In this document: one piece after another, positions 52,342-64,000 of the stretch
How positions within the stretch are numbered: the first letter of the stretch is position 1
Layout: the number at the start of each line of letters is the position of its first letter
Source: Candidatus Peregrinibacteria bacterium GW2011_GWF2_39_17
Lineage (GTDB): Bacteria; Patescibacteriota; Gracilibacteria; UBA1369; UBA12473
Direction of reading: 5' to 3'
NCBI GenBank assembly: GCA_000993615.1
Contig: LBWM01000003.1
Location: 16,125-80,124 of the forward strand
DNA: 64,000 nucleotides
The notes under the pieces: generated by a model
The model's database searches: none
What the model was told of the DNA's origin: nothing
The model's input: only the letters and a program-made list of their open reading frames with translations
Translations under genes and position numbers: made by a program

Positions 52342-53547
52342 TCATTCAACGATGGATTTCAAAGATTCAACATCTATTTTAGAAATCTGGGCTCGTGGCG
52401 AAGTTAATTTATCAATTACGCCTTGCTGGTTTCTGGTTTGGAGCATTAAAGTTTTAACATCAGTTGGTGAAAATTGCTGTAAACGCATTTTCCCCTTTTT
52501 AAAATTAATATCGTCCTTAATATCACTTCGAAGTGTATTGGCTTTTTCAAGGACAGAAACACCACTTTGAGCCGAAAGCAAGTCAAGGGCGTTTCGCATG
52601 TTGATGTGATGGTCAAATTCAGCGATTAAACTGACAATATTTTCTCGATCTCGCGGGTCCATTTGCTCCGCCAGTTCGTAAGAGCTAATTTTCTTAAAAG
52701 TGGCTAAAACAACGGCCATAGCATCTGGAGAAATCACAAAAACCTCGTAGCCTTTCTCGTAAAAATACGTTTTCGTTAAAGACATGATGGCCTCGCCTGG
52801 AATCACCAAAAAAACCATTGGATAAATTCGTGGATCATTATTGATTTTTTCAACGGTTGACTTAACAGCAGTATTTGCAAAATAATTTTGCAAATTATCT
52901 GATTTAGAACACTTGGCATCAAAAATCACATATTGTCCTAAAAACTCAATCATGAAATCCGGCTTAAATTTACCCCCAAAGCCATCCGGTAAATTTTTAT
53001 TATCAAATGTTGTAAAACCGTACTGGGGCAATTTGCATAATTCCACTAACTGATTTTTAACGTTATTTTCATGCTCAGCCCATATTCGATCGCGAGTTTC
53101 TTTTTCTTTTTGATCGCGTTCTTCATCCTCCTTCCGAACCCTTCTTTTTTCATCATCAAGAGCATTTTTAGCTTCATCTAATTTTTGAATTTTTTGCTCT
53201 AGTTCTTTGGCCATTCTCGCTTCATCGGACTGAAATCGAGTTACCTCCTTACTAAGGCGTTCCCTGTCTTTAAGCAAACTTTCATTCTCCGCCTTAAGCG
53301 ATGTTTTTTCAGCAAATAATTGTTTGTTTTTACCTGCTAATTCATCTTTTAAAGTTTTTTCAGTTTGAAGATTAGAAATAATTTCCCCTAGCTGCTTATC
53401 CCGATGACTTAAATCTGCCTTGAGCTTAGCATTTTCTTCTATATTTCGAAAATCATTGGAATCGTTTTTAGGCTTTAATAATAATTGATAAAGTACAATA
53501 CCAAGTCCGATTAAAAGCAGAGTCAATAAAATATTGGTAATTCCCAT
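52342..53547 (-). CDS. rmuC: RmuC-like DNA recombination protein (TM anchor, coiled coil, PD-(D/E)xK-like C-terminal domain)
   Basis: N-terminal TM helix and a long K/E-rich coiled coil. 'KFKPDFMIEFLGQYVIFDAKCS' resembles RmuC 'RPD..I.LP.....IDAK'. Confidence 0.55.
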   Translation of the reverse strand: MGITNILLTLLLIGLGIVLYQLLLKPKNDSNDFRNIEENAKLKADLSHRDKQLGEIISNLQTEKTLKDELAGKNKQLFAEKTSLKAENESLLKDRERLSKEVTRFQSDEARMAKELEQKIQKLDEAKNALDDEKRRVRKEDEERDQKEKETRDRIWAEHENNVKNQLVELCKLPQYGFTTFDNKNLPDGFGGKFKPDFMIEFLGQYVIFDAKCSKSDNLQNYFANTAVKSTVEKINNDPRIYPMVFLVIPGEAIMSLTKTYFYEKGYEVFVISPDAMAVVLATFKKISSYELAEQMDPRDRENIVSLIAEFDHHINMRNALDLLSAQSGVSVLEKANTLRSDIKDDINFKKGKMRLQQFSPTDVKTLMLQTRNQQGVIDKLTSPRAQISKIDVESLKSIVE

Positions 53548-53572: not shown

Positions 53573-53740
53573 TGCTTGGAGCTGCCTCTATGAAGAAGTT
53601 CGGACTCATTTTAAAGCATCTGGAGGCTAGCCTCCAGAGATTTTTTAAAAAACCGCCTGAAACCTGCGCCAGCGTGCGTTGAAAGGGGGCGGGCGGCGCG
53701 CAATGGGGCTTTGTGAAAATTCGACACGGAAAAGGACGGG
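53573..53740. repeat. Left arm of a GC-rich imperfect inverted repeat flanking the type I R-M island
   Basis: By hand alignment, 53573-53646 is the exact reverse complement of 62839-62912 (74 nt), and 53705-53740 is the exact reverse complement of 62719-62754 (36 nt). The GC-rich core between them is only partly alignable. The arm contains the 18-nt palindrome ctggaggctagcctccag (53620-53637) followed by agatttttt. Confidence 0.85.
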
Positions 53741-53809
53741 CGGGCAAGAATATTGGCAAGTACCCATGGAAACCCATTAGCATCAATAGAATTTTAAAAA
53801 AACTGATGC

Positions 53810-54364
53810 CTAATAATTATTTTTCAACTCACGAATGAGATTTTTGTAATTTGGTAATGCTTTTTCCACCAGGTTCCAGTATTTTCGACCGTGACTTAAT
53901 TCCTTGAGATGACAAAGTTCGTGAACAACAATGTACTGCGCCAAGTGAAGCGGTAAAAATACAATCCTATAATTAAAATTCAAGTTCCCCTTTTTTGAGC
54001 AGCTTCCCCATTTTGTTTTATGACTCTTAATAGTGATTTTTTTGTATTTTAAGTCACATACTTTATTAAATTTTTTAATAATTCTAAGTGCTAATTCATA
54101 AGCTCGTTCCTTATTCTGTTCAAAGCCGACAGATTGATTTTTAACTTTGATCCCCTTGGCTTCTCTAAAATAATCCAATTTTGCAGATATCCACTTTGAT
54201 TTTTGCCTTAAATAAGCCTCTACATCCGAAACAGTTTTGTGATGAGGCAGCGTAACAACGACATCGCTATTATAATAAACTGCTATCCGTAAGCGTTTTG
54301 CGCGGGTGCTTTTCCTTATCGAATAAGGAATTTTGCGGTCATAGAGTGTAATTTCTGTCATCAT
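53810..54364 (-). CDS. YgjP/DUF45-like (M48-type) zinc metallopeptidase at the end of the type I R-M operon
   Basis: 'KTKWGSCSKKGNLNFNYRIVFLP...YIVVHELCHLKELSHGRKYWNLV'. The start overlaps the hsdR stop. Confidence 0.8.
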   Translation of the reverse strand: MMTEITLYDRKIPYSIRKSTRAKRLRIAVYYNSDVVVTLPHHKTVSDVEAYLRQKSKWISAKLDYFREAKGIKVKNQSVGFEQNKERAYELALRIIKKFNKVCDLKYKKITIKSHKTKWGSCSKKGNLNFNYRIVFLPLHLAQYIVVHELCHLKELSHGRKYWNLVEKALPNYKNLIRELKNNY

Positions 54365-57276
54365 TAAAATTTTTTGATTATCAGATCAGTCAGTTCGTTT
54401 AAATATTTTTGAAAGTCTTTTATCTTAATTTTATCTTTAAATTCTTTAAGAATTAAAATTTGCACCTCTCTTTTTATATCTTTTAGGAAAGCTTCTCTTT
54501 TTGATGATTCTTGCCATTCTTTATCCAGAATTTCATCGAGCCGAGCAGTTATAACTTTTGCAAATTCGATAAGGTCTTCTTTTGACGTATCTTCAGAAAA
54601 ACCTTCGGTTATGATAAAAATCGCATACTCCTTCAGATCAAGCCCCATGTCTTTAGCTTTGTTTCCAACCTGCTTGATATCTTCCATAAGTTCAAAATAT
54701 GCCTTTATTCTTTCCGCAAGATCGATCTGATTTTGTTCAAAGTCAGCTTTGATAGCCATCAGTCTCTCACTGAATTTTTTAAATACAGGATTTGTTTCAA
54801 TGTTGATCGAAATTTCCCGTTTTAACATTTTCTCAAGATTGACTGCTTTCTCTTCATCATCCATCTTTTCAAGCCTTTCAAGCGTATAAATATCATTGAT
54901 TCTTAATTCTCTAAAATTCTTGGTAATCCCCTCATAATCTACGCTTGATTTAATCAATTCCTGCATTTTACCGCCATATTCGCTTAAGCTGTGGCCACTT
55001 TCCTCAGTTCGATATTCCTTTATGAATGCGATATAAAAACTTGCCAGCCATTCAAACTTACGGAGATAGTCCATCAAAAAAGGGTCGGGTGATAAGATTT
55101 CAAAAAGAATTTTTAGATTATTATAATTGTCATAAAAGAATTGCTGCTTATTTTCATCCTCAAAAAAGAGTTTCAGGCATTTACGCAGATTTTCCATTGA
55201 GGCATCTTCCGTATTCACGCCAACAAATAGGTTGATGATTTCATTAAACAAGTCTGTAAATCGTTTTTTATACTCATTAATGTCAATCATGGCGCTATCA
55301 ATCACACTTTCGTCGAAATTGAGAGCTTCGTGCAAATTTCTCGTGATGCCGTAGTAATCAATTATTTTTCCGCAACCCTTCTCTTTGCTATAAACACGGT
55401 TTGTTCGTGCAATAGCCTGTAAGAGGTTGTGATCACGCAAAGGCTTGTCCAAATACATTACCTGCTCAATCGGTGCGTCAAAACCCGTTAGAAGCATGTC
55501 ACAGATTATTAAGAATCGTAGAGGATCATCCTTGCTCTTAAAAGCATCAATAATTCTTTCCCGATCACTTTTACTCGTGTTGTATCTTTTTAATTGTTCA
55601 TCATCGCTGTTTGGATCCCCTGGCGAATAAACCACTTTTGACCATTCTTTTGGGATTAACTCATCGAGCAGTTTTTTATACATCGCACAAGCTTCACGGT
55701 CATAACAAACAATCTGCGCCTTGAATCCGTTAGGCTCAATATAAAGTTTAAAATGCTCAACGATATCTAAAGCCACGGCTCTCATTCTTTTTTCAAGCTT
55801 CACTAAAGCTGATTTTTTGCCATATTTTTTAATCAATTCTTGTTTTTCTTCATCGGAAAGATCACCGGTTAATTCTTCAAATTGCCCATCAACATGGTCT
55901 TCATCGAGAAAGAATTTTGATAGTCGCGCTTCATAAGTTACGGGCAATGTGGCGCCGTCTTCGATAGCCTGTTGGATTGAATAGTAATCAAGATACCTCT
56001 CTCCTTCCTCTCCAAAGTTTCGGTGAGTGTTCAGTGTCTTTTTATCAATCGGTGTCCCCGTAAAGCCGAAAAAGAAGGCATTTTTCATTGTGCTTCGCAA
56101 TTTTATCGCCGCAATACCTTCATTGTCGCGATGCGCTTCATCACAAAGCACAATCAGGTTATCATCCAGATTTTCCACATCTTTTCCAAGCTCGTTGAAT
56201 TTTTGAATGGTAGAAATGAAAATCCCTCGTTCCGGAGATTTTATTTTTTGCTCCAGATCACGGCGAGAAGTCGCCCGTTCAACATTTTTACCGCCGCAAT
56301 TGATAAAGGTTTCAAAAATCTGGTCATCCAGATCAATACGATCTACAAGAATAAAAACTTTAGGATTTTTTAAACGCGGCTCAAAGCGCAGTTTCCATGC
56401 AGTATAAAACATGGTGATGCTCTTTCCGCTGCCTTGAGTGTGCCAAACCAAGCCTTTTTTCTTCTTACCTTCGATAACCCGCTGCACAATCAAATTCGTT
56501 GCTCTCAATTGTTGATAGCGGCAGATTTTTTTTGACGTTCGCCCTTTTTCTTTCTCGAAAACAAGGAAATTTTTAATGATGTCTAAAAGATTTTCCTGCT
56601 TAAAAAGAGCCACCAGCGTCATTTCAAGATTGCCGCCCGCAACTTCTTCAAAATCATCATCACGCCATTGAAAGAAATACTGTTTTGGTGACCCCGTGGC
56701 TCCGTAAACTGTTTTCAAACCATCTGTAGCCACATTAAAACAGTTCGGCAAAAACAATTTGCGCGCATTTCTCTCATATCGCTTAATCTGATCAATCCCT
56801 TTTTCATAATTGACGGAAAAAGAAGCGGTTGGACTTTTGGCCTCAATATCGGCAATCGGCAAACCATTTAAAAATACAATCATATCCGGCCGGATATTTT
56901 CTTCATTTCCTTCAAAAATAAATTGGTTAGTGACGACAAAATGGTTGTTCTCGGGATTATCAAAGTCTACTATTTTATAATCCCTCATCGTTCTTGTTTT
57001 TGGATCCTGTAGATTCACACCGTTTCGCATCACCTCCAAAAATCCTTCATTGGTCTCGATTTTTTTGATTTCACGTACAACATTTTCCACCTCTGTATCA
57101 TCCTCAAGCTGATTGATTCGTTTAATTGCGACTTTGAGGTGCGGAATAATCAAATATTCCGTCTCAAACTCCCGCAGTTTCTTAAAATCTTCCGGCTTAA
57201 TATATTCATATCCAAGATCGTGCTCAAAAAATGAGATGATATGATTTTCGACGGTGTATTGTTCGTTGAAGCGCAT
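54364..57276 (-). CDS. hsdR: Type I restriction enzyme, R subunit
   Basis: N-terminal nuclease region 'RPDMIVFLNGLPIADIEAKS'. SF2 helicase motifs are 'VWHTQGSGKSITM', 'LCDEAHRD', 'FGFTGTP' and 'MLLTGFDAP...QAIARTNR'. Confidence 0.95.
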   Translation of the reverse strand: MRFNEQYTVENHIISFFEHDLGYEYIKPEDFKKLREFETEYLIIPHLKVAIKRINQLEDDTEVENVVREIKKIETNEGFLEVMRNGVNLQDPKTRTMRDYKIVDFDNPENNHFVVTNQFIFEGNEENIRPDMIVFLNGLPIADIEAKSPTASFSVNYEKGIDQIKRYERNARKLFLPNCFNVATDGLKTVYGATGSPKQYFFQWRDDDFEEVAGGNLEMTLVALFKQENLLDIIKNFLVFEKEKGRTSKKICRYQQLRATNLIVQRVIEGKKKKGLVWHTQGSGKSITMFYTAWKLRFEPRLKNPKVFILVDRIDLDDQIFETFINCGGKNVERATSRRDLEQKIKSPERGIFISTIQKFNELGKDVENLDDNLIVLCDEAHRDNEGIAAIKLRSTMKNAFFFGFTGTPIDKKTLNTHRNFGEEGERYLDYYSIQQAIEDGATLPVTYEARLSKFFLDEDHVDGQFEELTGDLSDEEKQELIKKYGKKSALVKLEKRMRAVALDIVEHFKLYIEPNGFKAQIVCYDREACAMYKKLLDELIPKEWSKVVYSPGDPNSDDEQLKRYNTSKSDRERIIDAFKSKDDPLRFLIICDMLLTGFDAPIEQVMYLDKPLRDHNLLQAIARTNRVYSKEKGCGKIIDYYGITRNLHEALNFDESVIDSAMIDINEYKKRFTDLFNEIINLFVGVNTEDASMENLRKCLKLFFEDENKQQFFYDNYNNLKILFEILSPDPFLMDYLRKFEWLASFYIAFIKEYRTEESGHSLSEYGGKMQELIKSSVDYEGITKNFRELRINDIYTLERLEKMDDEEKAVNLEKMLKREISINIETNPVFKKFSERLMAIKADFEQNQIDLAERIKAYFELMEDIKQVGNKAKDMGLDLKEYAIFIITEGFSEDTSKEDLIEFAKVITARLDEILDKEWQESSKREAFLKDIKREVQILILKEFKDKIKIKDFQKYLNELTDLIIKKF

Positions 57277-58124
57277 TAAATAACGTGGTTAATATATCGA
57301 AGTAATAGACCTGTCTGATAAATCAAAAACTCATTTTCGGCATCATCCAATTCGCCATCATTGTGCTTACTATTCTCATTAAAATATTGATCGAGATAGC
57401 TAAAAATTTGAACAATTATATTTCTAATTTGAGCATCAACATGAGCGGTTTTAAGCGTTTTACTTAATTCATTTTTATTCTCCTTTAACCCTTTTTTATT
57501 TTTCAACTTCAATCTGAGAAATTCTTCTAAAGCCCTTCTCAAGCCTTCGGCAGATTTTATATAGTGTTTAGCCTGATAAAACTTGAGTGCATCTGTAAAA
57601 TGCGTATTACTTTGCGCATCTAGGAAATCCATCACTCTATTTACAAGAACTTCATCAAGAATTCCTTCGCCTTTTGGATAGAAAATAATTTCTCCATTAT
57701 CAAGTTTTGCTATTGCAAGATTTACATTTGAGAACTCAAGTGATTTCCAAAGTTTTACGTATAAAATTTCCTTGCTATAACTGTTTTGCCCGCTATACCC
57801 CGACCTAGTTCTAATGTCGAGAGAAAAAATAATTTGCAATAATTTATAGAATTCTATTTCATCATTTTCTTTCATCAATCTGTCTTTGATATTTGTGCCC
57901 CATGCCCGATTGTAAGGGTCGAATTTATCATGATGCCATTTCTCAGGGATTCCCAAGAATTGGCAAAAAATAGCTACACTTGATTCAGTGACGTGAGAAT
58001 CAATATCACTCATAAAATTCAAAATTCGAATTTTGAATTTTCTAAATTCTTCTTGTGAATTTATTGCAATATCTGGCAATTTCCACCGCTGGTTAAATTT
58101 TTTAATCATATCTTTTAAACTCAT
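57276..58124 (-). CDS. Unknown protein embedded between hsdS and hsdR (C-terminal helical, HEPN/DUF4145-like region suspected)
   Basis: 282-aa ORF. Its stop overlaps the hsdR start, and its start lies 5 nt after the hsdS stop. The C-terminal region 'AEGLRRALEEFLRLKL...IRNIIVQIFSYLDQYFNENSKHNDG' is reminiscent of HEPN-type helices, but I do not see a canonical Rx4-6H. Confidence 0.55.
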   Translation of the reverse strand: MSLKDMIKKFNQRWKLPDIAINSQEEFRKFKIRILNFMSDIDSHVTESSVAIFCQFLGIPEKWHHDKFDPYNRAWGTNIKDRLMKENDEIEFYKLLQIIFSLDIRTRSGYSGQNSYSKEILYVKLWKSLEFSNVNLAIAKLDNGEIIFYPKGEGILDEVLVNRVMDFLDAQSNTHFTDALKFYQAKHYIKSAEGLRRALEEFLRLKLKNKKGLKENKNELSKTLKTAHVDAQIRNIIVQIFSYLDQYFNENSKHNDGELDDAENEFLIYQTGLLLRYINHVI

Positions 58125-58129
58125 AGTTT

Positions 58130-59368
58130 TTAATTATTAACTCTTACCTTCCCACTCAAAAGGTCATTCATAAGGCCTTTTTTGAGTTTTAGTAAATTAG
58201 ATTTTGTTTTTTCGTTGATGACAAGGCGGCCATCAATTGCATCTAAAATTTTAGCAATTTGTTCCTGTTCAGTTACGGGAGGAACAGGCACAAAACATTT
58301 AAGAACTTCATCTTTTCTTAAATTAGTTTGGCCAACACCATTATCAAAATTCAAAAAATAGCTATTCCTGCTTAGTACATAAAAATAGAATTTTGGATTG
58401 CCGTTAATTGGTCTTAAGGCACAGATTCTTTGATTGAGTGTGTATTTATTATCCTCTAATACCAAAAAACACTTACCTAATGCTTTACCATTCGGAACAT
58501 CACTCATCACCATAACAATATCGCCAGCTGATAGAGGCTTTAAGTTGTCATTTGAATATTTCACTACTGCTCCGTCTGAAGATATAAATTTTGAATTTAT
58601 TACTATATAATTACCATTTTCTGCGATTTGCTTCTCATGCGCTTTGCCATTTTTGAATCTGCATACTTTGCTCAATTCTTCCACCTCCCACTCCTCCGGA
58701 ATCTCTCCAAGCTCGGTTTGCTTGAATTTTGTGTGTCCGATTCCTTTCGTCAAAAGTTTCTGCATCAACCCTTTCTTCAATTTTTCCGTTTGCTCTATAA
58801 TTTGTTCGACTTTTTCGATTTCTTCGTCGACTCTGGAGAAAATGGAGGCGATGCGGGTTTGTTCGGGCAGAGAAGGAAGGGAAATATCTAAAGATGATAA
58901 TGATTTGAGTTGTAGATGTAAAACCGTTGAACCGCTCGAAATACTTCTCATGAATTGCCTGACGCTATCCTGCAATAGATAGTAATACAAATAATGTTTA
59001 ATTACTTGATTTCCATCTATGTCAATTACTGATAAATCCATAGATATTAAAACCGAATTACTCGAAAGATGGGGCATGAATAGCGGCGCTCCAATAATGT
59101 CGCCGGCTCTGGTTAAATCCGTATTTGCGATGATTAAATCTCCACTTTCTACAACATTTGATTGATCATATTTCCCCTTATAAAATTTGACTCCATCTTT
59201 GTTGAACCCTCCTCCTTTTGAAATACACTTAAGAGTTACAAAAACCAGTCCATTCTTTTCATCACCATAATCAACGCTTTTGTAAGTGAGGCCTTTTCTG
59301 ATTCTGGCAATTTCAGTTAAACCTTTTTTTTTCCACCCCGCTGGTATTTGTTGAGCTGTTTTTGTCAT
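58130..59368 (-). CDS. hsdS: Type I restriction-modification specificity subunit
   Basis: Two target-recognition halves, each ending in a conserved helix: 'LPSLPEQTRIASIFSRVDEEIEKVEQIIEQTEKLKKGLMQKLLTKG' and 'VPPVTEQEQIAKILDAIDGRLVINEKTKSNLLKLKKGLMNDLLSGK'. Confidence 0.93.
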   Translation of the reverse strand: MTKTAQQIPAGWKKKGLTEIARIRKGLTYKSVDYGDEKNGLVFVTLKCISKGGGFNKDGVKFYKGKYDQSNVVESGDLIIANTDLTRAGDIIGAPLFMPHLSSNSVLISMDLSVIDIDGNQVIKHYLYYYLLQDSVRQFMRSISSGSTVLHLQLKSLSSLDISLPSLPEQTRIASIFSRVDEEIEKVEQIIEQTEKLKKGLMQKLLTKGIGHTKFKQTELGEIPEEWEVEELSKVCRFKNGKAHEKQIAENGNYIVINSKFISSDGAVVKYSNDNLKPLSAGDIVMVMSDVPNGKALGKCFLVLEDNKYTLNQRICALRPINGNPKFYFYVLSRNSYFLNFDNGVGQTNLRKDEVLKCFVPVPPVTEQEQIAKILDAIDGRLVINEKTKSNLLKLKKGLMNDLLSGKVRVNN

Positions 59369-59397
59369 AATCGAATTTAGAAAATTATCGCCTCAAA

Positions 59398-59550
59398 TCA
59401 AGCAAATCCATAACGAACTTGTGCATTTTGATAATGGTTGCTTTTGAATATTTCAGTATTTCTTGCACTTTTTTCATCACTGATTCTAGCCTCAGAATAA
59501 GGCCACTGCTCGGCCCAAAGCTGATCGCGTTGTTTTTGAGTTAACTTCAT
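59398..59550 (-). CDS. Possible 50-aa ORF translationally coupled to rhuM
   Basis: Hand translation gives MKLTQKQRDQLWAEQWPYSEARISDEKSARNTEIFKSNHYQNAQVRYGFA*. Its ATG (59548-59550) overlaps the rhuM TGA (59547-59549) as ATGA. It is below the 60-aa cut-off of the ORF track, and no homology was recognised. Confidence 0.3.
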   Translation of the reverse strand: MKLTQKQRDQLWAEQWPYSEARISDEKSARNTEIFKSNHYQNAQVRYGFA

Positions 59551-60554
59551 TTTTTCTTCTTAAGAAATTTCTTTGTTTCCTTGTCAAAATCCGACTCAAA
59601 CTGCTTGTCCTGAATAATCCTGAACTTTTCATACTCGTTTTCGGCCAATTCTTTAGCAACCTTTGCCGAAACTTTGCCTGGATTATTTAGAATTTCATAT
59701 TCATTGAATTGCAAGAAAGCATCAAGCTTTTCTCTCCAGTTTTTCATCGTCATCAACCTGCCGTTTTCCGCCTGATTTTCACCATAAATCAGGTACATCT
59801 CCACAATGCGATTCAATTTTCCTATTTCATCCTGATTGAGGTAATTTTTAGCAATCGAAACATCCGATTTTAAGATTTTGCCTTTGGGTGAATGTTTCCA
59901 TGTGGTGAGTCCCATAAGTGGTTTCTTGCTGTCAGCCCTCATCGCAACAATTTCTGCAGCCGTTTGTCCAGTAATAGCCCAATGAAGTTTATTTTGTACA
60001 GTGGCAAAAAATTCCTGAGTTAATTCGTCATTTGCATCATAATCAATACTTGTTGCATAAAGATCTGTAATTTTCTGATAAAACCGCCTCTCGCTGGCAC
60101 GGATTTCTCGAATACGCTCAAGTAAACTTTCAAAATAATCTTTGTCGAAATGACTGCCATTTTTAAGTCTTTCATCATCCAGAACAAAGCCCTTGATGAT
60201 AAATTCACGCAAAGTTTGAGTCGCCCAAATACGGAATTTGGTAGCTCGTGTAGAATTAACCCTATAGCCAACCGAAATAATAGCGTCGAGATTATAAAAA
60301 CTTGTAAGATATTCTTTCCCATCTTCGGCAGTTGTTCGAATTTTTCGAATAACTGAATCCTCAGTCAATTCGCCACTTTTAAAGATTTCTTTCAAATGAT
60401 AGTTAATTGTATTTACCTCTACACCAAATAATTCCGCCATCTTTTTTTGTCTTAGCCACACGGTTTCATCTTGAAAAAAAACATCAATTTTCACATCGCC
60501 TTCCGGCGTTGTGTAAAGGATTATGTTTGATTGTTGTGGTTTGTGATCTGTCAT
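59547..60554 (-). CDS. rhuM: RhuM-family protein (virulence-protein RhuM-like), embedded in the type I R-M operon
   Basis: 'IILYTTPEGDVKIDVFFQDETVWLRQKKMAELFGVEVNTINYHLKEIF...LDAIISVGYRVNSTRATKFRIWATQTLREFIIKGFVLDDERLK' is the RhuM signature. The ATG at 60554 (MTDHKPQQ) is preferred over the GTG at 60620. Confidence 0.85.
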   Translation of the reverse strand: MTDHKPQQSNIILYTTPEGDVKIDVFFQDETVWLRQKKMAELFGVEVNTINYHLKEIFKSGELTEDSVIRKIRTTAEDGKEYLTSFYNLDAIISVGYRVNSTRATKFRIWATQTLREFIIKGFVLDDERLKNGSHFDKDYFESLLERIREIRASERRFYQKITDLYATSIDYDANDELTQEFFATVQNKLHWAITGQTAAEIVAMRADSKKPLMGLTTWKHSPKGKILKSDVSIAKNYLNQDEIGKLNRIVEMYLIYGENQAENGRLMTMKNWREKLDAFLQFNEYEILNNPGKVSAKVAKELAENEYEKFRIIQDKQFESDFDKETKKFLKKKK

Positions 60555-60622
60555 GATGTATCTTGTTAAATATCCAAGTTGTGACAATTTGTTACGGTTT
60601 AAACGTATCGAATTCGACACGG

Positions 60623-62308
60623 TTAATATTTCAATTCCTTCAAATATCCCTCCACTTCCTTATCTATTTGGCTTCTTTCCTTTTCCAGCTCCTTCAACTC
60701 TCCCCAAACTTCACTTACGTTGATTTCCTCCTCCTCTTCTCCATTTTCGATATATCGGCGGACATTCAGATTGAATTCATTTTTCTCAATTTCTTTTAGA
60801 TCAACAATGCGTGCGAATTTTTCAATATCTTTGTAGTCATCATAGGCGCTTACGATTTTGTCGATGTCCTTTTTCCTCAAGCTGTTCTGATTTTTCCCTT
60901 CCGCATAATCTTTTTCAGCATCTATGAAAATGAGTTTATTTTTTTTGTTTTCGGGCTTGTTTCTATTAAAAATCAGAATACAAACGGGAATCCCAACGCC
61001 GTAAAACAGTTTTGAAGGCATTGCTATAATTGCTTCAATCAGATCATTTTTCAAAATTTGTTCACGAATCCGGCCTTCACTGCCGCCCCTGAAAAGCACA
61101 CCGTGAGGGAGTACAACTCCGGCACGTCCATTTTCTTTCATTGATTTAATGATGTGTAATATAAAGACATAGTCTGCGTTTTTATTTGGCGGCATGTCGT
61201 AGCCTGTAAGTCTTCCATAACGATTTGTCTTGAAAAATTCATACGGCCAGTCTTTGATGGAATAGGGAGGATTGGCGACCACTATGTCGAACTGTTTTAA
61301 AGCACCGAAATCGTCTAGAAATTGAGGATCTTGTAATGTATCTCCGCGCCTGATGTCGGCTGCATCCAGGCCGTGCAAAAACATATTTATTTTTGCTATG
61401 GCAAAAGTTCCGAGGTTTATTTCTTGCCCATATAGATAAAGAGTGTTGGCTATTTTTTCATCGGTTTTTTCTCTTAAATGTAGATATGATTCAAGAAGAA
61501 ATCCGCCTGAACCAACGGTCGGATCATATATGTGATTTTTTTCGTGTGGTTTTAGAATATTGATGATGACGCGTTCAATTTCACGGGGGGTATAAAATTC
61601 ACCTCCTTTTTTACCAGCGTCGGCGGCAAATTGCTTTATGAGATATTCATATGCGTCACCGAGTAGGTCGGAATTTATATAGTTACTCCCAAAATTATAT
61701 TGAGAGAAGTGGTTAATAAGCCGTTGGAGAGTATCATTTGGAAACTTGTGTTTATTCGCAAAATCCAGATCGTCGAATATTCTGTCGAGTTTTGGGCTGT
61801 TGGCGTTGGTAAGTTTCGCAAAGTTTTCATTCAACTTTTGTCCGATATTGTCCGCCTGTTGTTCAATTACTATCCATTTGCAGTCTTCCGGAACCTGAAA
61901 ACGGTGGTTGTAATCAGCTTTTGCGAGATTTTTATCGTTAAATTCGTCCATTACTTTTTGATATTCCTCATCCCATACGTCACTTATGCGTTTATAAAAA
62001 AGAAGCCCAAAAATATATTTTTTGTAATCCGAGCTGTCGATCTTTCCCCTTAATATATCTGCACTTTTCCACAAAAACTGTTCAAGCTGTTGGAGCGTGA
62101 GCCTGCTTCCCATTTTGGCAGTTATTGTTTCAATATCTGCCGGACGGTACCTGCGGTCTTGTCGATCTCCGATTCTCAAAGGGACAAGAAGTCCTTTCTT
62201 TTCCCAATTTCGCAAAGTGTCTTGATGAATGCCAAAAATCTCTGAGACCTCACTGATTGAAAGGAGGTCTGGCATTTCTTTTAACTTTTTTTCGATTTCT
62301 CTTTTCAT
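60623..62308 (-). CDS. hsdM: Type I R-M N6-adenine DNA methyltransferase subunit with an N-terminal MerR/excisionase-type HTH
   Basis: HTH 'LLSISEVSEIFGIHQDTLRNWEKKGLLVPLRIGDRQDRRYRPADIE'. HsdM N-domain 'LWKSADILRGKIDSSDYKKYIFGLLFYKRISD'. SAM motif 'IYDPTVGSGGFL' and catalytic 'VVANPPYSIKDW'. Confidence 0.95.
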   Translation of the reverse strand: MKREIEKKLKEMPDLLSISEVSEIFGIHQDTLRNWEKKGLLVPLRIGDRQDRRYRPADIETITAKMGSRLTLQQLEQFLWKSADILRGKIDSSDYKKYIFGLLFYKRISDVWDEEYQKVMDEFNDKNLAKADYNHRFQVPEDCKWIVIEQQADNIGQKLNENFAKLTNANSPKLDRIFDDLDFANKHKFPNDTLQRLINHFSQYNFGSNYINSDLLGDAYEYLIKQFAADAGKKGGEFYTPREIERVIINILKPHEKNHIYDPTVGSGGFLLESYLHLREKTDEKIANTLYLYGQEINLGTFAIAKINMFLHGLDAADIRRGDTLQDPQFLDDFGALKQFDIVVANPPYSIKDWPYEFFKTNRYGRLTGYDMPPNKNADYVFILHIIKSMKENGRAGVVLPHGVLFRGGSEGRIREQILKNDLIEAIIAMPSKLFYGVGIPVCILIFNRNKPENKKNKLIFIDAEKDYAEGKNQNSLRKKDIDKIVSAYDDYKDIEKFARIVDLKEIEKNEFNLNVRRYIENGEEEEEINVSEVWGELKELEKERSQIDKEVEGYLKELKY

Positions 62309-62473
62309 AGTATTACGAAATGTTATTTATTGAAACAAACCCGAGTATACAGATGAAAGTTGGAAAAGTCAATATAAAATTTCTTCATAGGTTATCATAG
62401 GTTTAGCATTGACTTTTATTTGGCTGTACCTAATATAGGGGGTGCAATATTTATTTTTTAAACTCTTAAGTTT

Positions 62474-62686
62474 ATGCCAAAAAAGGATACAAATGCGCCA
62501 AACATGCCCGGTCATGCCGCTCGAACTCAACAAGGGAGACTTCGAAAAATAAGGGAAGATACTCAAATGGGGACTCTGAAACAACGCTATCATGTTGACT
62601 TGGGAGTAAGAAGTGATATGGAATGGGGAACTTTCAAGGAAAAGTTTGATATCGATAGCGTTAAGGAGGCCTTAGAAAAAAAATAA
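62474..62686 (+). CDS. Possible small hypothetical protein
   Basis: 70-aa ORF divergent from hsdM, preceded by TTGACT (62409-62414), a 16-nt spacer, then TAATAT (62431-62436). No clear RBS and no motif recognised. Confidence 0.3.
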   Translation: MPKKDTNAPNMPGHAARTQQGRLRKIREDTQMGTLKQRYHVDLGVRSDMEWGTFKEKFDIDSVKEALEKK

Positions 62687-62718
62687 GGATAAATAAATCT
62701 CCCTAACCCATCCCAATG

Positions 62719-62912
62719 CCCGTCCTTTTCCGTGTCGAATTTTCACAAAGCCCCCTTTCGGGCGGCGCGAGGAGTTGTGCGTGGGTGCGCCAGCGTGCGT
62801 TGCCCCCTTTCAGCGCACGCTGTGGCACAGAGTTCAACAAAAAATCTCTGGAGGCTAGCCTCCAGATGCTTTAAAATGAGTCCGAACTTCTTCATAGAGG
62901 CAGCTCCAAGCA
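62719..62912. repeat. Right arm of the GC-rich imperfect inverted repeat flanking the type I R-M island
   Basis: See the left arm. The exact blocks are 62719-62754 and 62839-62912. The core contains the hairpin cagcgtgcg...cgcacgctg, and the palindrome ctggaggctagcctccag lies at 62848-62865. Confidence 0.85.
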
Positions 62913-63012
62913 GTAAATCGCGATTTTTCGGACGCGGCGGCCCACGGAAAACCCAATTCCACAACGTCTTTTTGGCCGATGATGTGGAAGTTCGCCGCGC
63001 GGAGCGCGGAAT

Positions 63013-63052
63013 AAAACCGAATGGTAAAATGAACAGGATACCATTCGGTTTT
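63013..63052. repeat. Perfect 14-bp inverted repeat with a 12-nt spacer, upstream of the recombinase remnant
   Basis: aaaaccgaatggta (63013-63026) / taccattcggtttt (63039-63052). It could be a terminator-like hairpin (a T-run follows a few nt later) or a recombinase or operator site. Confidence 0.5.
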
Positions 63053-63129
63053 ATAGCCAATTTTTTACTTTTTGCCGAAGGCAAAACTTCTAAATTTCCA
63101 GTTAAAGAAAACGACAACCAATCAAGCCT

Positions 63130-63400
63130 ATGAAGTATTTTATCTATGCCAGAAAATCTACGGATGAAAATGACCGCCAAGTTCTCTCTATTGAAGGACA
63201 AGTAACGGAATTACGAGAATTTGCCGTAAAAGAAAAACTGGAAGTCATTGATGAATTTATAGAAAGCAAAACGGCAAAGGTGCCCGGCAGACCAATTTTC
63301 AACAAAATGATCAAAAAAATAGGACTTAACGGTCATGCGGATAACGTAGGAATTTTAGCGTGGCATCCCGACAGATTGGCAAGAAACAGCATAGATGGCT
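63130..63400 (+). pseudogene. Truncated serine recombinase (N-terminal catalytic domain fragment only)
   Basis: 'MKYFIYARKSTDENDRQVLSIEGQ...GRPIFNKMIKKI...VGILAWHPDRLARNSIDG' matches resolvase/large serine recombinase N-termini, with a catalytic Ser in 'YARKS'. Homology stops at ~aa 90, exactly where the tRNA gene begins. The remainder of ORF 63130..63522 is read-through of the tRNA. Confidence 0.7.
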
Positions 63401-63474
63401 TGGAGCGGATGACGGGAATCGAACCCGTGCCTCAACCTTGGGAAGGTCGCGTACTACCATTATACTACATCCGC
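63401..63474 (-). tRNA. tRNA-Gly (anticodon CCC) with encoded CCA
   Basis: The reverse complement, GCGGATGTAGTATAATGGTAGTACGCGACCTTCCCAAGGTTGAGGCACGGGTTCGATTCCCGTCATCCGCTCCA, folds by hand into a cloverleaf: a 7-bp acceptor stem, a 4-bp D stem, a 5-bp anticodon stem with loop TTCCCAA, a T arm ACGGG/TTCGATT/CCCGT, and discriminator T followed by CCA. Confidence 0.9.
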
Positions 63475-63616: not shown

Positions 63617-63644
63617 TTGACATTCAAAATCAAAAGACTAAATT
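63617..63644 (+). promoter_or_regulatory. Sigma70-like promoter in front of the terminal structured region
   Basis: TTGACA (63617-63622), a 16-nt spacer, then TAAATT (63639-63644). Confidence 0.35.
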
Positions 63645-63792
63645 TAGTCCGTAAAAAAATTAAATACGCACGCCTAGGGCACTGCGTAAACAGTAGGGAA
63701 CTGACTGACTTTGAAGGATCATCTTCTCGCTCTCAAAGGCGCTCACTCCCTGAGGTTTACTCGGGCTCTACGACGATTCGTAGCGTACATCT

Positions 63793-63842
63793 CCTTTCCT
63801 TTGCGGCATTTATTAGTGATTTTATATGCCCTAAAGGAAAGG
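63793..63842 (+). other. Long stem-loop (17-bp stem with 2 mismatches)
   Basis: cctttcctttgcggcat (63793-63809) pairs with atgccctaaaggaaagg (63826-63842) across a 16-nt AT-rich loop. Confidence 0.55.
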
Positions 63843-63845
63843 GTG

Positions 63846-64000
63846 GTGTGGGCTCAAACCGTGGTAGGGTTGTTCCTTACCAACGCGGAGAGTCCACACG
63901 AAGGTAAAATTCGAAAAATGGGGAAACCCATGCGCCGTAAGGCACTTTCGAATTCGCAGTTGAGCTGTAAAAAGATCGTCCACTTTTGGACGAAAATATC
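63846..64000 (+). ncRNA. Candidate structured RNA running off the window: possibly the 5' end of a group II intron (class C-like), alternatively another ncRNA
   Basis: It begins GUGUG 3 nt after the long stem-loop. It contains 'GGAGAGUCCACACGAAGG' and a 9-bp helix (aattcgaaa/tttcgaatt) enclosing two GNRA-capped hairpins (augggGAAAcccau, gccGUAAggc). GC is clearly above the local background. The only ORF there (63617..63907) does not look like a protein. Confidence 0.3.

What the first reader, a model, noticed from the sequence alone, without database searches (positions are those of the whole stretch)
53573..62912. Whole type I R-M island bracketed by ~170-195-nt GC-rich inverted repeats with two perfectly identical blocks
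Seen in sequence: hand alignment shows 53573-53646 is the exact reverse complement of 62839-62912 (74 nt), and 53705-53740 is the exact reverse complement of 62719-62754 (36 nt). A GC-rich core between these blocks has diverged and contains its own hairpin in the right copy. The arms lie just outside ygjP/hsdR on one side and hsdM plus a small ORF on the other, so they enclose the full ~9-kb R-M operon. Each arm carries the palindrome ctggaggctagcctccag followed, when read inward, by agatttttt. This looks like an intrinsic terminator facing transcription that enters the island. ORFs predicted across the arms share 'KNLWRLASRCFKMSPNFFIEAAPS' only because of this repeat. Inference: the arms could be terminal inverted repeats of a mobile cassette carrying the R-M system. 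They could be substrates for inversion of the whole segment, since a serine recombinase remnant sits 220 nt from the right arm. They could also be copies of a genome-wide MITE/REP-like structured element that happened to land on both sides. Perfect identity of the two blocks within a diverged core argues for constraint or recent gene conversion.
Basis: partly seen in the sequence, partly recalled or inferred. Interest (0 to 1): 0.7.

Follow-up and report, generated by a model that had tools for sequence, protein, structure and literature searches.

The report
Recombinase attachment-site repeats bracketing defence cargo
The two inverted repeats are the left end and an internal, flipped copy of the attachment site of a small mobile island, driven by a large serine recombinase, that inserted at a glycine tRNA gene carrying a restriction-modification system; the same two-repeat design recurs in hundreds of related islands in candidate-phyla bacteria.

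Summary
In detail: 53573-53646 and 62839-62912 are a perfect 74-nt inverted repeat, and 53705-53741 and 62718-62754 a perfect 37-nt one. There are no other copies in the window.

The arms are neither a generic MITE nor transposon ends. They are the downstream (P') flank of the attachment site of a large serine recombinase (LSR) element.
- **74-nt block:** it holds the last 18 codons of the LSR gene and that gene's own terminator.
- **"Resolvase remnant":** 63130-63399 is the first 90 codons of this LSR, left by a ~1.2-kb internal deletion. It abuts tRNA-Gly(CCC).
- **Left arm:** this is the attL junction (host|TTGGAGC|P').
- **Right arm:** together with 62913-62994 it is an intact, inverted attP-like copy.

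In 80 related metagenome loci the layout recurs: attL, 2-9 kb of mostly defence cargo, inverted attP copy, LSR, then a convergent tRNA 3' end. The repeats are usually 98-100% identical within an element.

No inverted form of this island was found, and its recombinase is dead, so it is probably immobile. Why the family keeps an inverted attP copy is unresolved. I found no description of this architecture, but the literature search was largely unavailable. I rate it a new variant of a known kind.

The parts
53573..53741 (+). Left arm (arm A). This is the attL junction plus the P' flank of the attachment site, and is the left end of the island.
   Evidence: Exact inverted repeat with the right arm. 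Homologous at 83-94% to arms in other CPR assemblies. Host sequence changes to element sequence at TGCTTGGAGC.
53576..53582 (+). Crossover core TTGGAGC at attL. It is the reverse complement of the tRNA-Gly 3' end GCTCCA plus one downstream base (A).
   Evidence: The same heptamer ends the P arm in the right arm (62903-62909) and sits at the recombinase/tRNA junction (63400-63406). The attL/attP*/attR triads in L030, L031 and other loci break at this point.
53574..53630 (+). Copy of the last 18 codons plus stop of the recombinase gene (AWSCLYEEVRTHFKASGG*). The stop codon lies in the terminator loop.
   Evidence: Frame translation. It continues the C-terminal frame seen in the right arm.
53619..53646 (+). 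Intrinsic-terminator-like hairpin plus T run. This is the recombinase gene's own terminator; left copy.
   Evidence: Nearly invariant across 10 aligned arms.
53810..54364 (-). Cargo: YgjP-like metallopeptidase gene.
   Evidence: Pfam PF01863, E 1.8e-38.
54364..57276 (-). Cargo: type I restriction subunit HsdR.
   Evidence: Pfam HSDR_N, SWI2_SNF2, T1R_D3-like and T1RH-like_C.
57276..58124 (-). Cargo: 282-aa ORF of unknown function inside the R-M operon.
   Evidence: No Pfam family at E<=0.001, only noise at E~0.1. Called as a gene in public assemblies.
58130..59368 (-). Cargo: specificity subunit HsdS.
   Evidence: Pfam Methylase_S, E 1.2e-40.
59547..60620 (-). Cargo: RhuM-family gene.
   Evidence: Pfam PF13310, E 5.6e-113.
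60623..62308 (-). Cargo: HsdM methyltransferase with an N-terminal MerR/HTH_17 domain. A promoter-like site lies at 62372-62344.
   Evidence: Pfam N6_Mtase, HsdM_N and MerR_1. Promoter-like site with a 10/12 match.
62718..62912 (-). Right arm (arm B), P' part. It is an inverted copy of the left arm and includes the second terminator copy (62866-62839).
62903..62994 (-). P part of arm B. It is an inverted, non-functional copy of the recombinase C-terminal coding sequence (..NFHIIGQKDVVELGFPWAAASEKSRFTAW..). With the P' part it forms an intact attP-like site.
   Evidence: tblastn of the 490-aa recombinase, residues 458-489, 72% identity, E 5.6e-10. The same 92-nt inverted repeat flanks the recombinase gene in L009, L012 and L026-L033.
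62995..63129 (+). Upstream region of the recombinase gene. It contains hairpins, e.g. 63011-63026 / 63039-63054.
   Evidence: Conserved at 83% nt with L009 and L018 as one block from 62750 to 63398. 16-nt inverted repeat.
63130..63399 (+). Remnant of the large serine recombinase gene: the first 90 codons, including the YARKS nucleophile motif. Codons 91-490 are deleted.
   Evidence: 91% aa identity to residues 1-90 of the 490-aa protein of L009. Pfam Resolvase positions 2-88 of 145. Junction sequence.
63401..63474 (-). tRNA-Gly(CCC), the integration target. Its 3' end faces the island and remains intact.
   Evidence: ARAGORN. Rfam tRNA, 70.1 bits.

Best explanation
Window 53576-63406 is a ~9.8-kb integrative island of a family, widespread in candidate-phyla (Patescibacteria) genomes, that is moved by a large serine recombinase (LSR).

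**Attachment site (shown by comparison).**
- The element's attachment site attP overlaps the 3' end of the LSR gene.
- The P half is the last ~30 codons of the gene.
- The crossover core is TTGGAGC.
- The P' half and flank hold the last 18 codons, the gene's terminator and about 100 nt of GC-rich hairpins.

**Integration (inferred from junctions).**
- The LSR recombines this site with the 3' CCA end of a tRNA-Gly gene.
- One junction is attL (host|P'), which is the left arm.
- The other junction is attR (LSR 3' end|tRNA).
- The tRNA stays intact, and the LSR reading frame now ends inside it.

**Second attP copy (shown).**
- Every family member carries a second, complete attP-like copy in inverted orientation just upstream of the LSR gene.
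- In the window this is the right arm plus 62913-62994.
- The cargo therefore sits between two inverted P' flanks, and the LSR gene between two inverted P flanks.

**State in this window.**
- A ~1.2-kb deletion has removed LSR codons 91-490. The island is therefore probably fixed in place with an apparently intact type I R-M operon (inferred).
- Both arms have begun to decay by small deletions (shown).

**Open question.** The role of the inverted attP copy is inferred only. The most likely reading is a second, still recombination-competent site kept identical to its partners by gene conversion. It is not a free-running inversion switch.
For: **1. Arm content.**
- Arm B, read on the minus strand, encodes ..NFHIIGQKDVVELGFPWAAASEKSRFTAWSCLYEEVRTHFKASGG*. 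This matches the C-terminus of the 490-aa LSR (E 5.6e-10).
- Arm A holds the last 18 codons of that frame.
- The stop codon lies in the terminator loop.

**2. The recombinase remnant.**
- Positions 63130-63399 are 87-91% identical in protein to residues 1-90 of full-length LSRs.
- Those LSRs carry Resolvase, Recombinase and Zn_ribbon_recom domains.
- They give weak matches to phage A118 integrase.

**3. Conserved block.** Window 62750-63398 is one conserved block, 82-84% nt identical, in three other species.

**4. Target.**
- All full-length close relatives end in a convergent tRNA-Gly 3' end.
- Across 80 metagenome loci, 47 of 59 with enough downstream sequence have a convergent tRNA at the LSR 3' end. 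The targets are Gly, Gln, Ser, Trp, Val or Ala, by clade.

**5. Junction triads.** attR, the inverted attP copy and attL share one arm each and switch at a 3-9-nt core containing TGG, the reverse complement of CCA.

**6. Repeats across the family.**
- The repeat flanking the LSR gene occurs in 44 of 52 eligible loci (median 99 nt, 98.6% identity).
- The repeat flanking the cargo occurs in 16 loci (median 161 nt, 99.3% identity; median cargo 4.1 kb).
- Both are present on contigs of 274 kb and 960 kb.

**7. Site grammar.**
- The tRNA T-arm-like motif TTCGAAC lies 5 nt further from the core in P' than in the tRNA in 18 of 33 loci.
- The serine-integrase model of attP versus attB half-sites predicts this shift (from my own knowledge of Rutherford and Van Duyne's work).

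**8. Cargo.**
- Cargo is unrelated between elements with 90% identical LSR modules.
- It is mostly defence genes: R-M types I, II and IIG, CBASS parts, AbiEii, a RelA/SpoT-type toxin and SIR2.

**9. Low copy number.** At most 2 arms per assembly.
Against: - No empty tRNA-Gly(CCC) site with the window's left flank was found, so the boundaries rest on junction logic and on sister elements.
- No excised circle of this exact element was seen. The one circular-looking relative is a 10,189-nt contig with a 141-nt terminal overlap. It has a frameshifted LSR and could be a tandem array.
- No recombination activity has been shown for any member.
- The purpose of the inverted attP copy is not explained by standard serine-integrase biology.
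- The arms in this window are less alike in their middle than in sister elements.
Confidence: 0.85

Rival explanations
1. The arms are crossover sites of an invertible segment. A serine recombinase flips the whole R-M operon and switches restriction on and off (phase variation).
For: The repeats are inverted, perfect over 74 nt, and lie next to a serine recombinase gene. Repeat pairs within sister elements are kept 98-100% identical, and the identical stretch extends past the family-conserved part, which implies recombination between them. In one relative (L089) the LSR segment lies in the opposite orientation relative to the tRNA.
Against: - The window's recombinase is a 90-codon stump.
- Of 15 contigs read per look-up, every one that spans an arm has YgjP next to the 401-aa gene. 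The others stop at an arm.
- The operon has its own promoter-like site inside the segment, so flipping would not switch it.
- Across the family, orientation is strongly biased. The LSR 3' end faces the tRNA in 47 loci, against 1-3 exceptions. Cargo genes point away from the LSR in 13 of 15 bounded cargos. That is not expected of a free switch.
- The enzyme is a 490-aa integrase type, not a Hin/Gin-type invertase.
Confidence: 0.06
2. The arms are copies of a genome-wide MITE/REP-like structured repeat that happened to land on both sides of the R-M genes.
For: They are GC-rich, hairpin-rich, non-coding-looking sequences in an AT-rich genome. A similar GC-rich hairpin motif recurs in the arms of distant relatives.
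Against: There are only two copies in 64 kb. At most 2 copies occur per assembly among 185,579 species genomes, all but one beside the LSR, the target tRNA-Gly or defence/toxin-type cargo. The outer 57 nt are LSR coding sequence. There are no target-site duplications.
Confidence: 0.02
3. The arrangement is the decayed remains of two recombinase modules inserted in opposite orientation around the cargo, like a composite transposon. The outer module was lost except for its 3' flank.
For: One metagenome contig (L052) shows a cargo with complete LSR modules facing outward on both sides, as a 2,122-nt perfect inverted repeat. Tandem arrays of elements exist (L101, L104, L087).
Against: The left arm begins exactly at the crossover core in the window and in sister elements, as a site-specific junction would and decay would not. 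The L052 contig is the kind of palindromic path an assembler produces at collapsed inverted repeats. The layout is uniform across LSRs of 49-100% identity.
Confidence: 0.05
4. The arms encode a small structured RNA or a small protein, and the repeat reflects two gene copies.
For: A promoter-less but terminator-ended 74-nt block could be an sRNA 3' end. Gene callers have called 71-aa and 95-aa ORFs on arm-B-like sequence in two short contigs.
Against: - No Rfam match in either arm.
- Folding energies of the window arms are not unusual for their composition (z -1.4 and -0.7).
- The arm-B frame has no usable start codon in the window.
Confidence: 0.02

Closest known systems
Large serine recombinase (serine integrase) integrative elements and prophages, e.g. 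phage A118, phiC31, Bxb1 and SCCmec Ccr (from my own knowledge)
   Same: The recombinase has Resolvase, Recombinase and zinc-ribbon domains. Integration is site-specific with only a few bases shared between the element and target sites. The attP-type half-site motif is displaced about 5 bp outward relative to the attB-type half-site.
   Different: - The target is the 3' CCA end of tRNA genes.
- attP lies inside the recombinase gene, so integration changes the protein's C-terminus.
- A complete second attP copy is kept in inverted orientation next to the gene.
- No directionality-factor gene is evident.
- Elements are only 4-12 kb and carry almost nothing except defence genes.
Myxococcus phage Mx8 intP/attP and Sulfolobus SSV1 int (attP inside the integrase gene; from my own knowledge)
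   Same: The attachment site lies within the integrase coding sequence, so integration alters or splits the gene's 3' end.
   Different: Those integrases are tyrosine recombinases, and those elements have no inverted second attP copy.
Tycheposons of Prochlorococcus (bioRxiv 10.1101/2020.12.28.424599)
   Same: They are small tRNA-targeting integrative elements that carry modular cargo, including defence genes, in streamlined genomes. A minority use large serine recombinases.
   Different: 910 of 937 use tyrosine recombinases, and many carry replication genes. The paper's one mention of inverted repeats is in its reference list.
Serine-invertase segments (Hin/hix, Gin/gix, Cin, Pin) and the Tn552/pI524 invertible region flanked by inverted res sites (from my own knowledge)
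   Same: A serine recombinase gene lies next to, or inside, a segment bounded by inverted copies of its own recombination site.
   Different: Those enzymes are about 190 aa with a C-terminal helix-turn-helix. Their sites are about 26-30 bp, and both orientations coexist. Here the enzyme is 490 aa, the repeats are 80-280 nt, orientation is strongly biased, and the primary reaction is integration at a tRNA.
Yeast 2-micron plasmid (Flp/FRT inside long inverted repeats; from my own knowledge)
   Same: A circle is divided into two unique segments by long inverted repeats that contain the recombinase's site. One segment carries the recombinase gene.
   Different: Flp is a tyrosine recombinase in a eukaryotic replicating plasmid with an amplification function. 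Nothing here shows replication.

Membership tests
Large-serine-recombinase integrative element | Encodes a recombinase with an N-terminal resolvase catalytic domain, a recombinase domain and a zinc-ribbon domain | tested here: met
   Full-length relatives (490 aa, 87-94% identical over the shared part) have PF00239, PF07508 and PF13408. The window itself keeps only codons 1-90, which include the YARKS serine motif.
Large-serine-recombinase integrative element | attL and attR junctions that each combine one element arm and one target arm around a short shared core | tested here: met
   Junction table for more than 50 loci. In the window these are host|TTGGAGC|P' at 53576 and TTGGAGC|tRNA at 63400.
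Large-serine-recombinase integrative element | Unoccupied target site (attB) in related genomes at the same locus | not tested
   All contigs that carry the flanking 401-aa gene also carry the island or break at the arm. The nearest homologues of that gene are 68% identical or less.
Large-serine-recombinase integrative element | Excised circular form with a reconstituted attP | tested here: inconclusive
   Contig JACRIB010000092.1 (L011 + L018) has a 141-nt terminal overlap and the order arm(rc)-LSR-arm-cargo. Its LSR is frameshifted by a 101-nt deletion, and tandem arrays would assemble the same way.
Serine-invertase invertible segment (Hin/Gin type) | Small (~190 aa) serine recombinase with a C-terminal helix-turn-helix | tested here: not met
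   The enzyme family is 484-540 aa with recombinase and zinc-ribbon domains.
Serine-invertase invertible segment (Hin/Gin type) | Both orientations of the segment present in a population | tested here: not met
   Only one orientation appears in the contigs that span an arm, out of 15 read per look-up; the rest stop at an arm. No pair with the same cargo in opposite orientation was found among 100+ loci. Read-level data were not available.
MITE / REP-like dispersed repeat | Many dispersed copies per genome, unlinked to a particular gene | tested here: not met
   2 copies in the window. At most 2 per assembly in the species-genome collection, nearly always with the LSR or cargo.
TIR transposon / composite transposon | Terminal inverted repeats at both element ends with a target-site duplication and a transposase | tested here: not met
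   The right arm is internal, since conserved element sequence continues 490 nt beyond it to the tRNA. No duplication flanks the arms. No transposase is present among the ORFs.
Known RNA family (Rfam) | Match to a curated covariance model | tested here: not met
   Only the tRNA passes gathering thresholds in the window. Permissive scans of both arms give nothing credible.

The most novel reading that the evidence does not exclude
The inverted internal attP copy may be a working second recombination site, which would make these islands two-module devices (a recombinase module and a cargo module).

Three observations point this way:
- **Tandem arrays:** in these, an incoming element has used a resident attR as its target.
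- **Recombinase-only remnants:** these are flanked by two inverted tRNA genes, as expected if the internal attP recombined with a second tRNA gene and deleted the cargo.
- **Repeat identity:** the repeats stay perfectly identical even beyond the family-conserved region.

If this holds, the family is a natural dual-site system. It could swap defence cassettes between elements, toggle the recombinase between a tRNA-fused and a native C-terminus, or rearrange small CPR chromosomes at tRNA genes.
Probability: 0.3. Interest if true: 0.8.

Novelty: new variant of a known kind. Interest (0 to 1): 0.62.

Why it matters
**Defence-gene mobility.** It explains how a whole R-M operon, and many other defence systems, move between candidate-phyla bacteria. 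These organisms have tiny genomes and few recognised mobile elements.

**A large, uniform family.** More than 7,900 related proteins were scored. The family gives precisely mapped attP, attB, attL and attR sites at tRNA 3' ends, which is useful raw material for integrase-based genome engineering.

**An unexplained design rule.** Every element keeps a complete inverted copy of its own attachment site, held almost perfectly identical to its partners. This can be tested directly in vitro and with long reads.

**Practical rule for annotation.** In these genomes, a pair of GC-rich inverted repeats plus a recombinase gene ending in a tRNA marks a defence island.

Tried and rejected
- **Rfam:** gathering and permissive scans of both arms and of the tRNA-distal flank gave nothing beyond the tRNA.
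- **Single-sequence folding of the window arms:** energies are not unusual for their composition (z -1.4 and -0.7).
- **Inverted state:** look-ups of the 401-aa flank gene and of YgjP found one orientation only. An all-against-all comparison of loci found opposite-strand matches only for the palindromic contig L052, plus one weak 69% match (L062/L071).
- **Right flank:** a look-up of the 96-aa ORF right of the tRNA, meant to extend the locus, found no record.
- **'Long-form' recombinases (510-540 aa):** I tested these as candidates for an intact native C-terminus. They are ordinary integrated copies whose ORF reads through the tRNA.
- **Native C-terminal peptide:** a protein search returned only two short ORF calls on arm-B-like sequence. 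The word index evidently misses short queries, so the search is uninformative.
- **Mosaic ancestry of the two window arms:** rejected. The right-arm spacer is simply divergent from all sampled alleles.
- **Empty site via homologues of the 401-aa gene:** not feasible, because the best homologue is 68% identical and the gene is patchily distributed.
- **IMG/VR scan with the recombinase:** one distant hit (44%), so these elements are not catalogued as viruses.
- **Literature:** two searches ran and found no description of such elements in CPR bacteria. Eight further searches failed with time-outs (include these).

Full report
**1.

The repeat finder reports 53573-53646 and 62839-62912 as a 74-nt, 100% complementary inverted pair. 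It reports 53690-53741 / 62718-62769 as a 52-nt pair at 90%. The exact inner block is 37 nt, 53705-53741 / 62718-62754.

Neither block occurs anywhere else in the 64-kb window, even with three mismatches. Shuffled sequence gives no matches.

Both arms carry TCTGGAGGCTAGCCTCCAGA followed by GATTTTTT, called as terminator-like and facing inward.

Between the arms, all on the minus strand, lie:
- a YgjP-like gene
- hsdR
- a 282-aa ORF of unknown function
- hsdS
- a RhuM-family gene
- hsdM with an N-terminal MerR-type domain
- a 74-aa ORF

To the right lie a 130-aa ORF with a resolvase N-terminal domain and, overlapping its end on the other strand, tRNA-Gly(CCC).

**2. Source and relatives**

The flanking 401-aa gene places the window in a groundwater Peregrinibacteria population (GCA_000995295.1 and several metagenome assemblies).

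A 22-mer from the arm (CTGGAGGCTAGCCTCCAGAGAT) was scanned against one genome for each of 185,579 species. It matched 11 stretches in 8 assemblies, with never more than two in one assembly. Seven assemblies are labelled Peribacteria, Peregrinibacteria, Gracilibacteria, Patescibacteria or simply 'bacterium'. The eighth is binned as Bacteroidales, but its contig (L016) matches the Gracilibacteria contig over the repeat, and their ORF layouts correspond throughout.

The arms there are 84-94% identical to the window's. This rules out a generic dispersed repeat.

**3. What the arms are**

In three of those species the conserved DNA does not stop at the right arm. It runs as one block from window 62750 to 63398, through the 'resolvase' ORF, and ends exactly at the tRNA.

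The intact gene in those species encodes a 490-aa protein with Resolvase, Recombinase and Zn_ribbon_recom domains. That makes it a large serine recombinase, LSR. It has weak sequence matches to the phage A118 integrase structure.

The window keeps only codons 1-90, at 91% identity. The sequence ..ATAGATGG is joined to CTTGGAGC, the last bases before the tRNA. This is a ~1.2-kb internal deletion.

Read on the minus strand, the right arm and the 82 nt beyond it (62913-62994) translate as ..NFHIIGQKDVVELGFPWAAASEKSRFTAWSCLYEEVRTHFKASGG*. This matches the LSR C-terminus (tblastn E 5.6e-10). The left arm contains the last 18 codons of the same frame.

The 74-nt perfect block is therefore the end of the recombinase gene plus that gene's own terminator, with the stop codon in the hairpin loop.

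**4. Junction logic**

In every close relative with an intact gene, the LSR reading frame ends inside the 3' end of a convergent tRNA-Gly gene. One example is ..GAATTTACCGTTTGGAGC|AAGTAACGGGAGTCGAACCC, where TGGAGC is the reverse complement of the tRNA's GCTCCA.

In the copy upstream of the gene, the same sequence continues instead as ..TTTGGAGC|TGCCTCTATGAAG.., which is the start of the arm. At the far end of the cargo, host sequence is joined to the same TGCCTCTATGAAG.. at the same core.

This gives three sites:
- attR: P arm | tRNA
- attL: host | P' arm
- an intact inverted attP-like site: P | P'

In the window these are:
- attL at 53576-53582 (left arm)
- the inverted attP copy at 62718-62994 (right arm plus extension)
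- the remnant of attR at 63400-63406

The tRNA gene is left intact.

A T-arm-like TTCGAAC motif sits 5 nt further from the core in P' than in the tRNA in 18 of 33 loci. As far as I know, published structural work on serine integrases describes this same offset between attP-type and attB-type half-sites.

**5. The architecture is a family trait**

A protein search with the LSR returned more than 7,900 relatives, all from metagenomes or MAGs. The named hosts are mostly Patescibacteria (Peregrinibacteria, Gracilibacteria, Paceibacterota, Magasanikbacteria, Berkelbacteria and Nealsonbacteria), with one Omnitrophica label. Many sit on contigs of 1.7-2.4 kb.

I analysed eighty metagenome loci with LSRs 49-100% identical to the query by self-comparison and tRNA search:

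| Feature | Loci with the feature | Typical size and identity |
|---|---|---|
| Inverted repeat between the region upstream of the LSR and the LSR 3' end | 44 of 52 with enough upstream sequence | median 99 nt, 98.6% |
| Convergent tRNA at the LSR 3' end | 47 of 59 with enough downstream sequence | Gly 19, Gln 16, Ser 7, Trp 3, Val 1, Ala 1, by clade |
| Second inverted repeat abutting the first and bracketing the cargo | 16 | median 161 nt, 99.3%; median cargo 4.1 kb |

The eight loci lacking the first repeat are mostly cut by a contig end.

The same layout, with 97-100% identical repeats, is present on contigs of 274 kb and 960 kb.

Within-element repeats are usually 98-100% identical, whereas arms of different elements are 81-94% alike. 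In L030 and L031 the identical stretch (255 and 281 nt) extends 75-100 nt beyond the part conserved between elements. The copies are therefore being homogenised.

**6. Cargo**

Elements with 90% identical recombinase modules carry unrelated cargo. The cargo seen includes:
- the window's type I R-M
- a different type I R-M with DUF3800 and AAA_21 genes (L010)
- an AlwI-type R-M (L011)
- a Schlafen/AAA/Hsp70-like set (L030)
- type I R-M plus SIR2 (L029)
- a RelA/SpoT-domain giant protein with an HD hydrolase (L013)
- AbiEii (L015)

A census of 45 ORFs from 13 repeat-bounded cargos is dominated by methyltransferases and restriction enzymes, with CBASS components, AAA_13 and DUF3644/PDC-S19. A few genes are not defence-related, such as EPSP synthase and a P-type ATPase.

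**7. State of the window's copy**

Relative to the consensus of ten aligned arms:
- the left arm has lost 52 nt between two GAAAGGGGGC direct repeats
- the right arm has lost 19 nt and 7 nt
- the right arm has a divergent spacer

The 'two perfect blocks in a diverged core' are therefore what is left after independent small deletions.

The recombinase is truncated, and the contigs that span an arm show only one orientation. This copy is best read as an immobilised island that still carries an apparently intact R-M operon. That operon has its own promoter-like site at 62372-62344.

**8. How it works, and what is not known**

*Shown by sequence comparison:*
- the identity of the arms
- the junctions
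- the tRNA target
- the family-wide layout
- the defence cargo

*Inferred:*
- integration by attP x tRNA-3'-end recombination
- that integration replaces the recombinase's last 18 residues by a few residues read from the tRNA antisense strand

*Unresolved:* why an inverted attP copy is kept.

Hints that it is active:
- Tandem arrays in which a resident attR served as target (L101, L104, L087).
- Recombinase-only units flanked by two inverted tRNA genes (L034, L058). This is expected if the internal attP recombined with a second nearby tRNA gene and deleted the cargo.
- One locus with the recombinase segment in the opposite orientation to the tRNA (L089).

Against a free inversion switch:
- The strong orientation bias of both segments.
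- The lack of opposite-orientation pairs.

One contig looks circular. Its recombinase is frameshifted, and a tandem array would assemble the same way.

The arms of many clades also share a GC-rich hairpin with a G-rich loop. They are more GC-rich (0.54 against 0.39) and somewhat more structured than shuffles (median z -1.9). The role of this hairpin is unknown.

**9. Comparison with known systems**

The element works like a serine-integrase genomic island and meets the domain and junction criteria. The empty-site criterion was not tested, and the circular-form criterion was inconclusive.

It fails the criteria for a Hin/Gin-type invertible segment, a MITE, a TIR transposon and any Rfam family.

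Placing attP inside the integrase gene recalls Mx8 and SSV1, which use tyrosine integrases. tRNA-targeting cargo islands in streamlined genomes recall tycheposons, which mostly use tyrosine recombinases. Long inverted repeats carrying the recombinase's site recall the 2-micron plasmid and the Tn552 invertible region. None of these combines all the features.

Two literature searches found nothing on such elements in CPR bacteria.

**10. Verdict**

The finding is real, and most of it is explained. I rate it a new variant of a known kind.

Interest is moderate to high. This is less because of this decayed copy than because it exposes a uniform, widespread and apparently undescribed island architecture with an unexplained dual-site design.

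Noticed in passing
L030-L109, e.g. L077 9632-9824, L095 2573-2679, L103 4651-4755: The arms of many recombinase clades (Gly, Gln, Ser and Trp targets) contain a similar long GC-rich hairpin with a G/A-rich loop, roughly CGGGCGGGC-AAAAAGGAAGGGGGTTGGGGGGAAGGAATTTTT-GCCCGCCCG. It occurs in either orientation. The arms are 54% GC against 39% for the loci. Its function is unknown. The G runs could in principle form a quadruplex.
   Followed up: partly
L034 7773-9772; L058 9706-11525: The recombinase gene is flanked on both sides by inverted tRNA genes (Gly/Gly and Gln/Gln) with no cargo between them. This is as expected if the internal attP copy recombined with a second tRNA gene.
   Followed up: partly
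L101 1-6722; L104 1652-1780; L087 127-344: Tandem arrangements occur. In them the 'host' side of attL is the 3' end (P arm) of another recombinase gene, sometimes of a different clade. This implies that incoming elements can use a resident attR as their target.
   Followed up: partly
L052 1-8610: A palindromic contig in which a 4.4-kb cargo has complete recombinase modules facing outward on both sides, as a 2,122-nt perfect inverted repeat. It is either an assembly path through collapsed repeats or a real double-module form.
   Followed up: no
L011 + L018 (JACRIB010000092.1): A 10,189-nt contig with identical first and last 141 nt, so it looks circular. It carries arm(rc)-recombinase-arm and an AlwI-type R-M with two D12 methyltransferases and a 1,089-aa unknown protein. 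Its recombinase has a 101-nt deletion between TTGGCTCGAACTTCC direct repeats.
   Followed up: partly
window 52342-53547 (-): The 401-aa gene abutting the left arm has no Pfam family. Its closest homologues are only 68% identical and are scattered across Patescibacteria, a Bacillota MAG, a Flavobacterium and others. It may itself be horizontally moving cargo of an older insertion.
   Followed up: partly
L002 1019-2941 and 6288-9184; L003 6353-9184: In other assemblies of the same population, hsdM is split into 307- and 253-aa ORFs. hsdR is split into 368- and 604-aa ORFs, or is 943 aa instead of 970 aa. This reflects either population-level decay of the R-M system or assembly errors.
   Followed up: no
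window 60623-62308 (-): The HsdM methyltransferase carries an N-terminal MerR/HTH_17 DNA-binding domain at residues 15-63, fused ahead of the usual HsdM_N domain.
   Followed up: no
window 63640-64000: Beyond the tRNA lies a relatively GC-rich stretch with several inverted repeats (e.g. 63793-63812 / 63823-63842) that runs to the window end. It has no credible Rfam match. The 96-aa ORF there has no Pfam family and is not on record as a called gene.
   Followed up: partly
window 62995-63129: The region between the inverted attP copy and the recombinase start contains hairpins (63011-63026 / 63039-63054, and TTTTTGCCGAAGGCAAAA). It appears to be an extended, hairpin-interrupted inverted copy of more of the recombinase 3' coding region, sharing GGAAATTTAGAAG..AAAAAATTGGCT with L009 7740-7780.
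   Followed up: partly
L016 (JBBAAT010000094.1): A 9,447-nt contig binned in a 'Bacteroidales' MAG matches the Gracilibacteria contig JBAZQU010000005.1 over the repeat and has the same ORF layout. It begins in one arm and is inferred from the offset to L009 to end in the other. This looks like a binning error caused by a repeat-bounded contig.
   Followed up: partly
P0241, P0242 (contigs of 658 and 578 nt): Gene callers have called 71-aa and 95-aa ORFs on arm-B-like sequence. Each joins a short unique N-terminus to a copy of the recombinase C-terminal tail. The window's copy has no usable start codon. Whether any element expresses such a tail peptide is unknown.
   Followed up: partly
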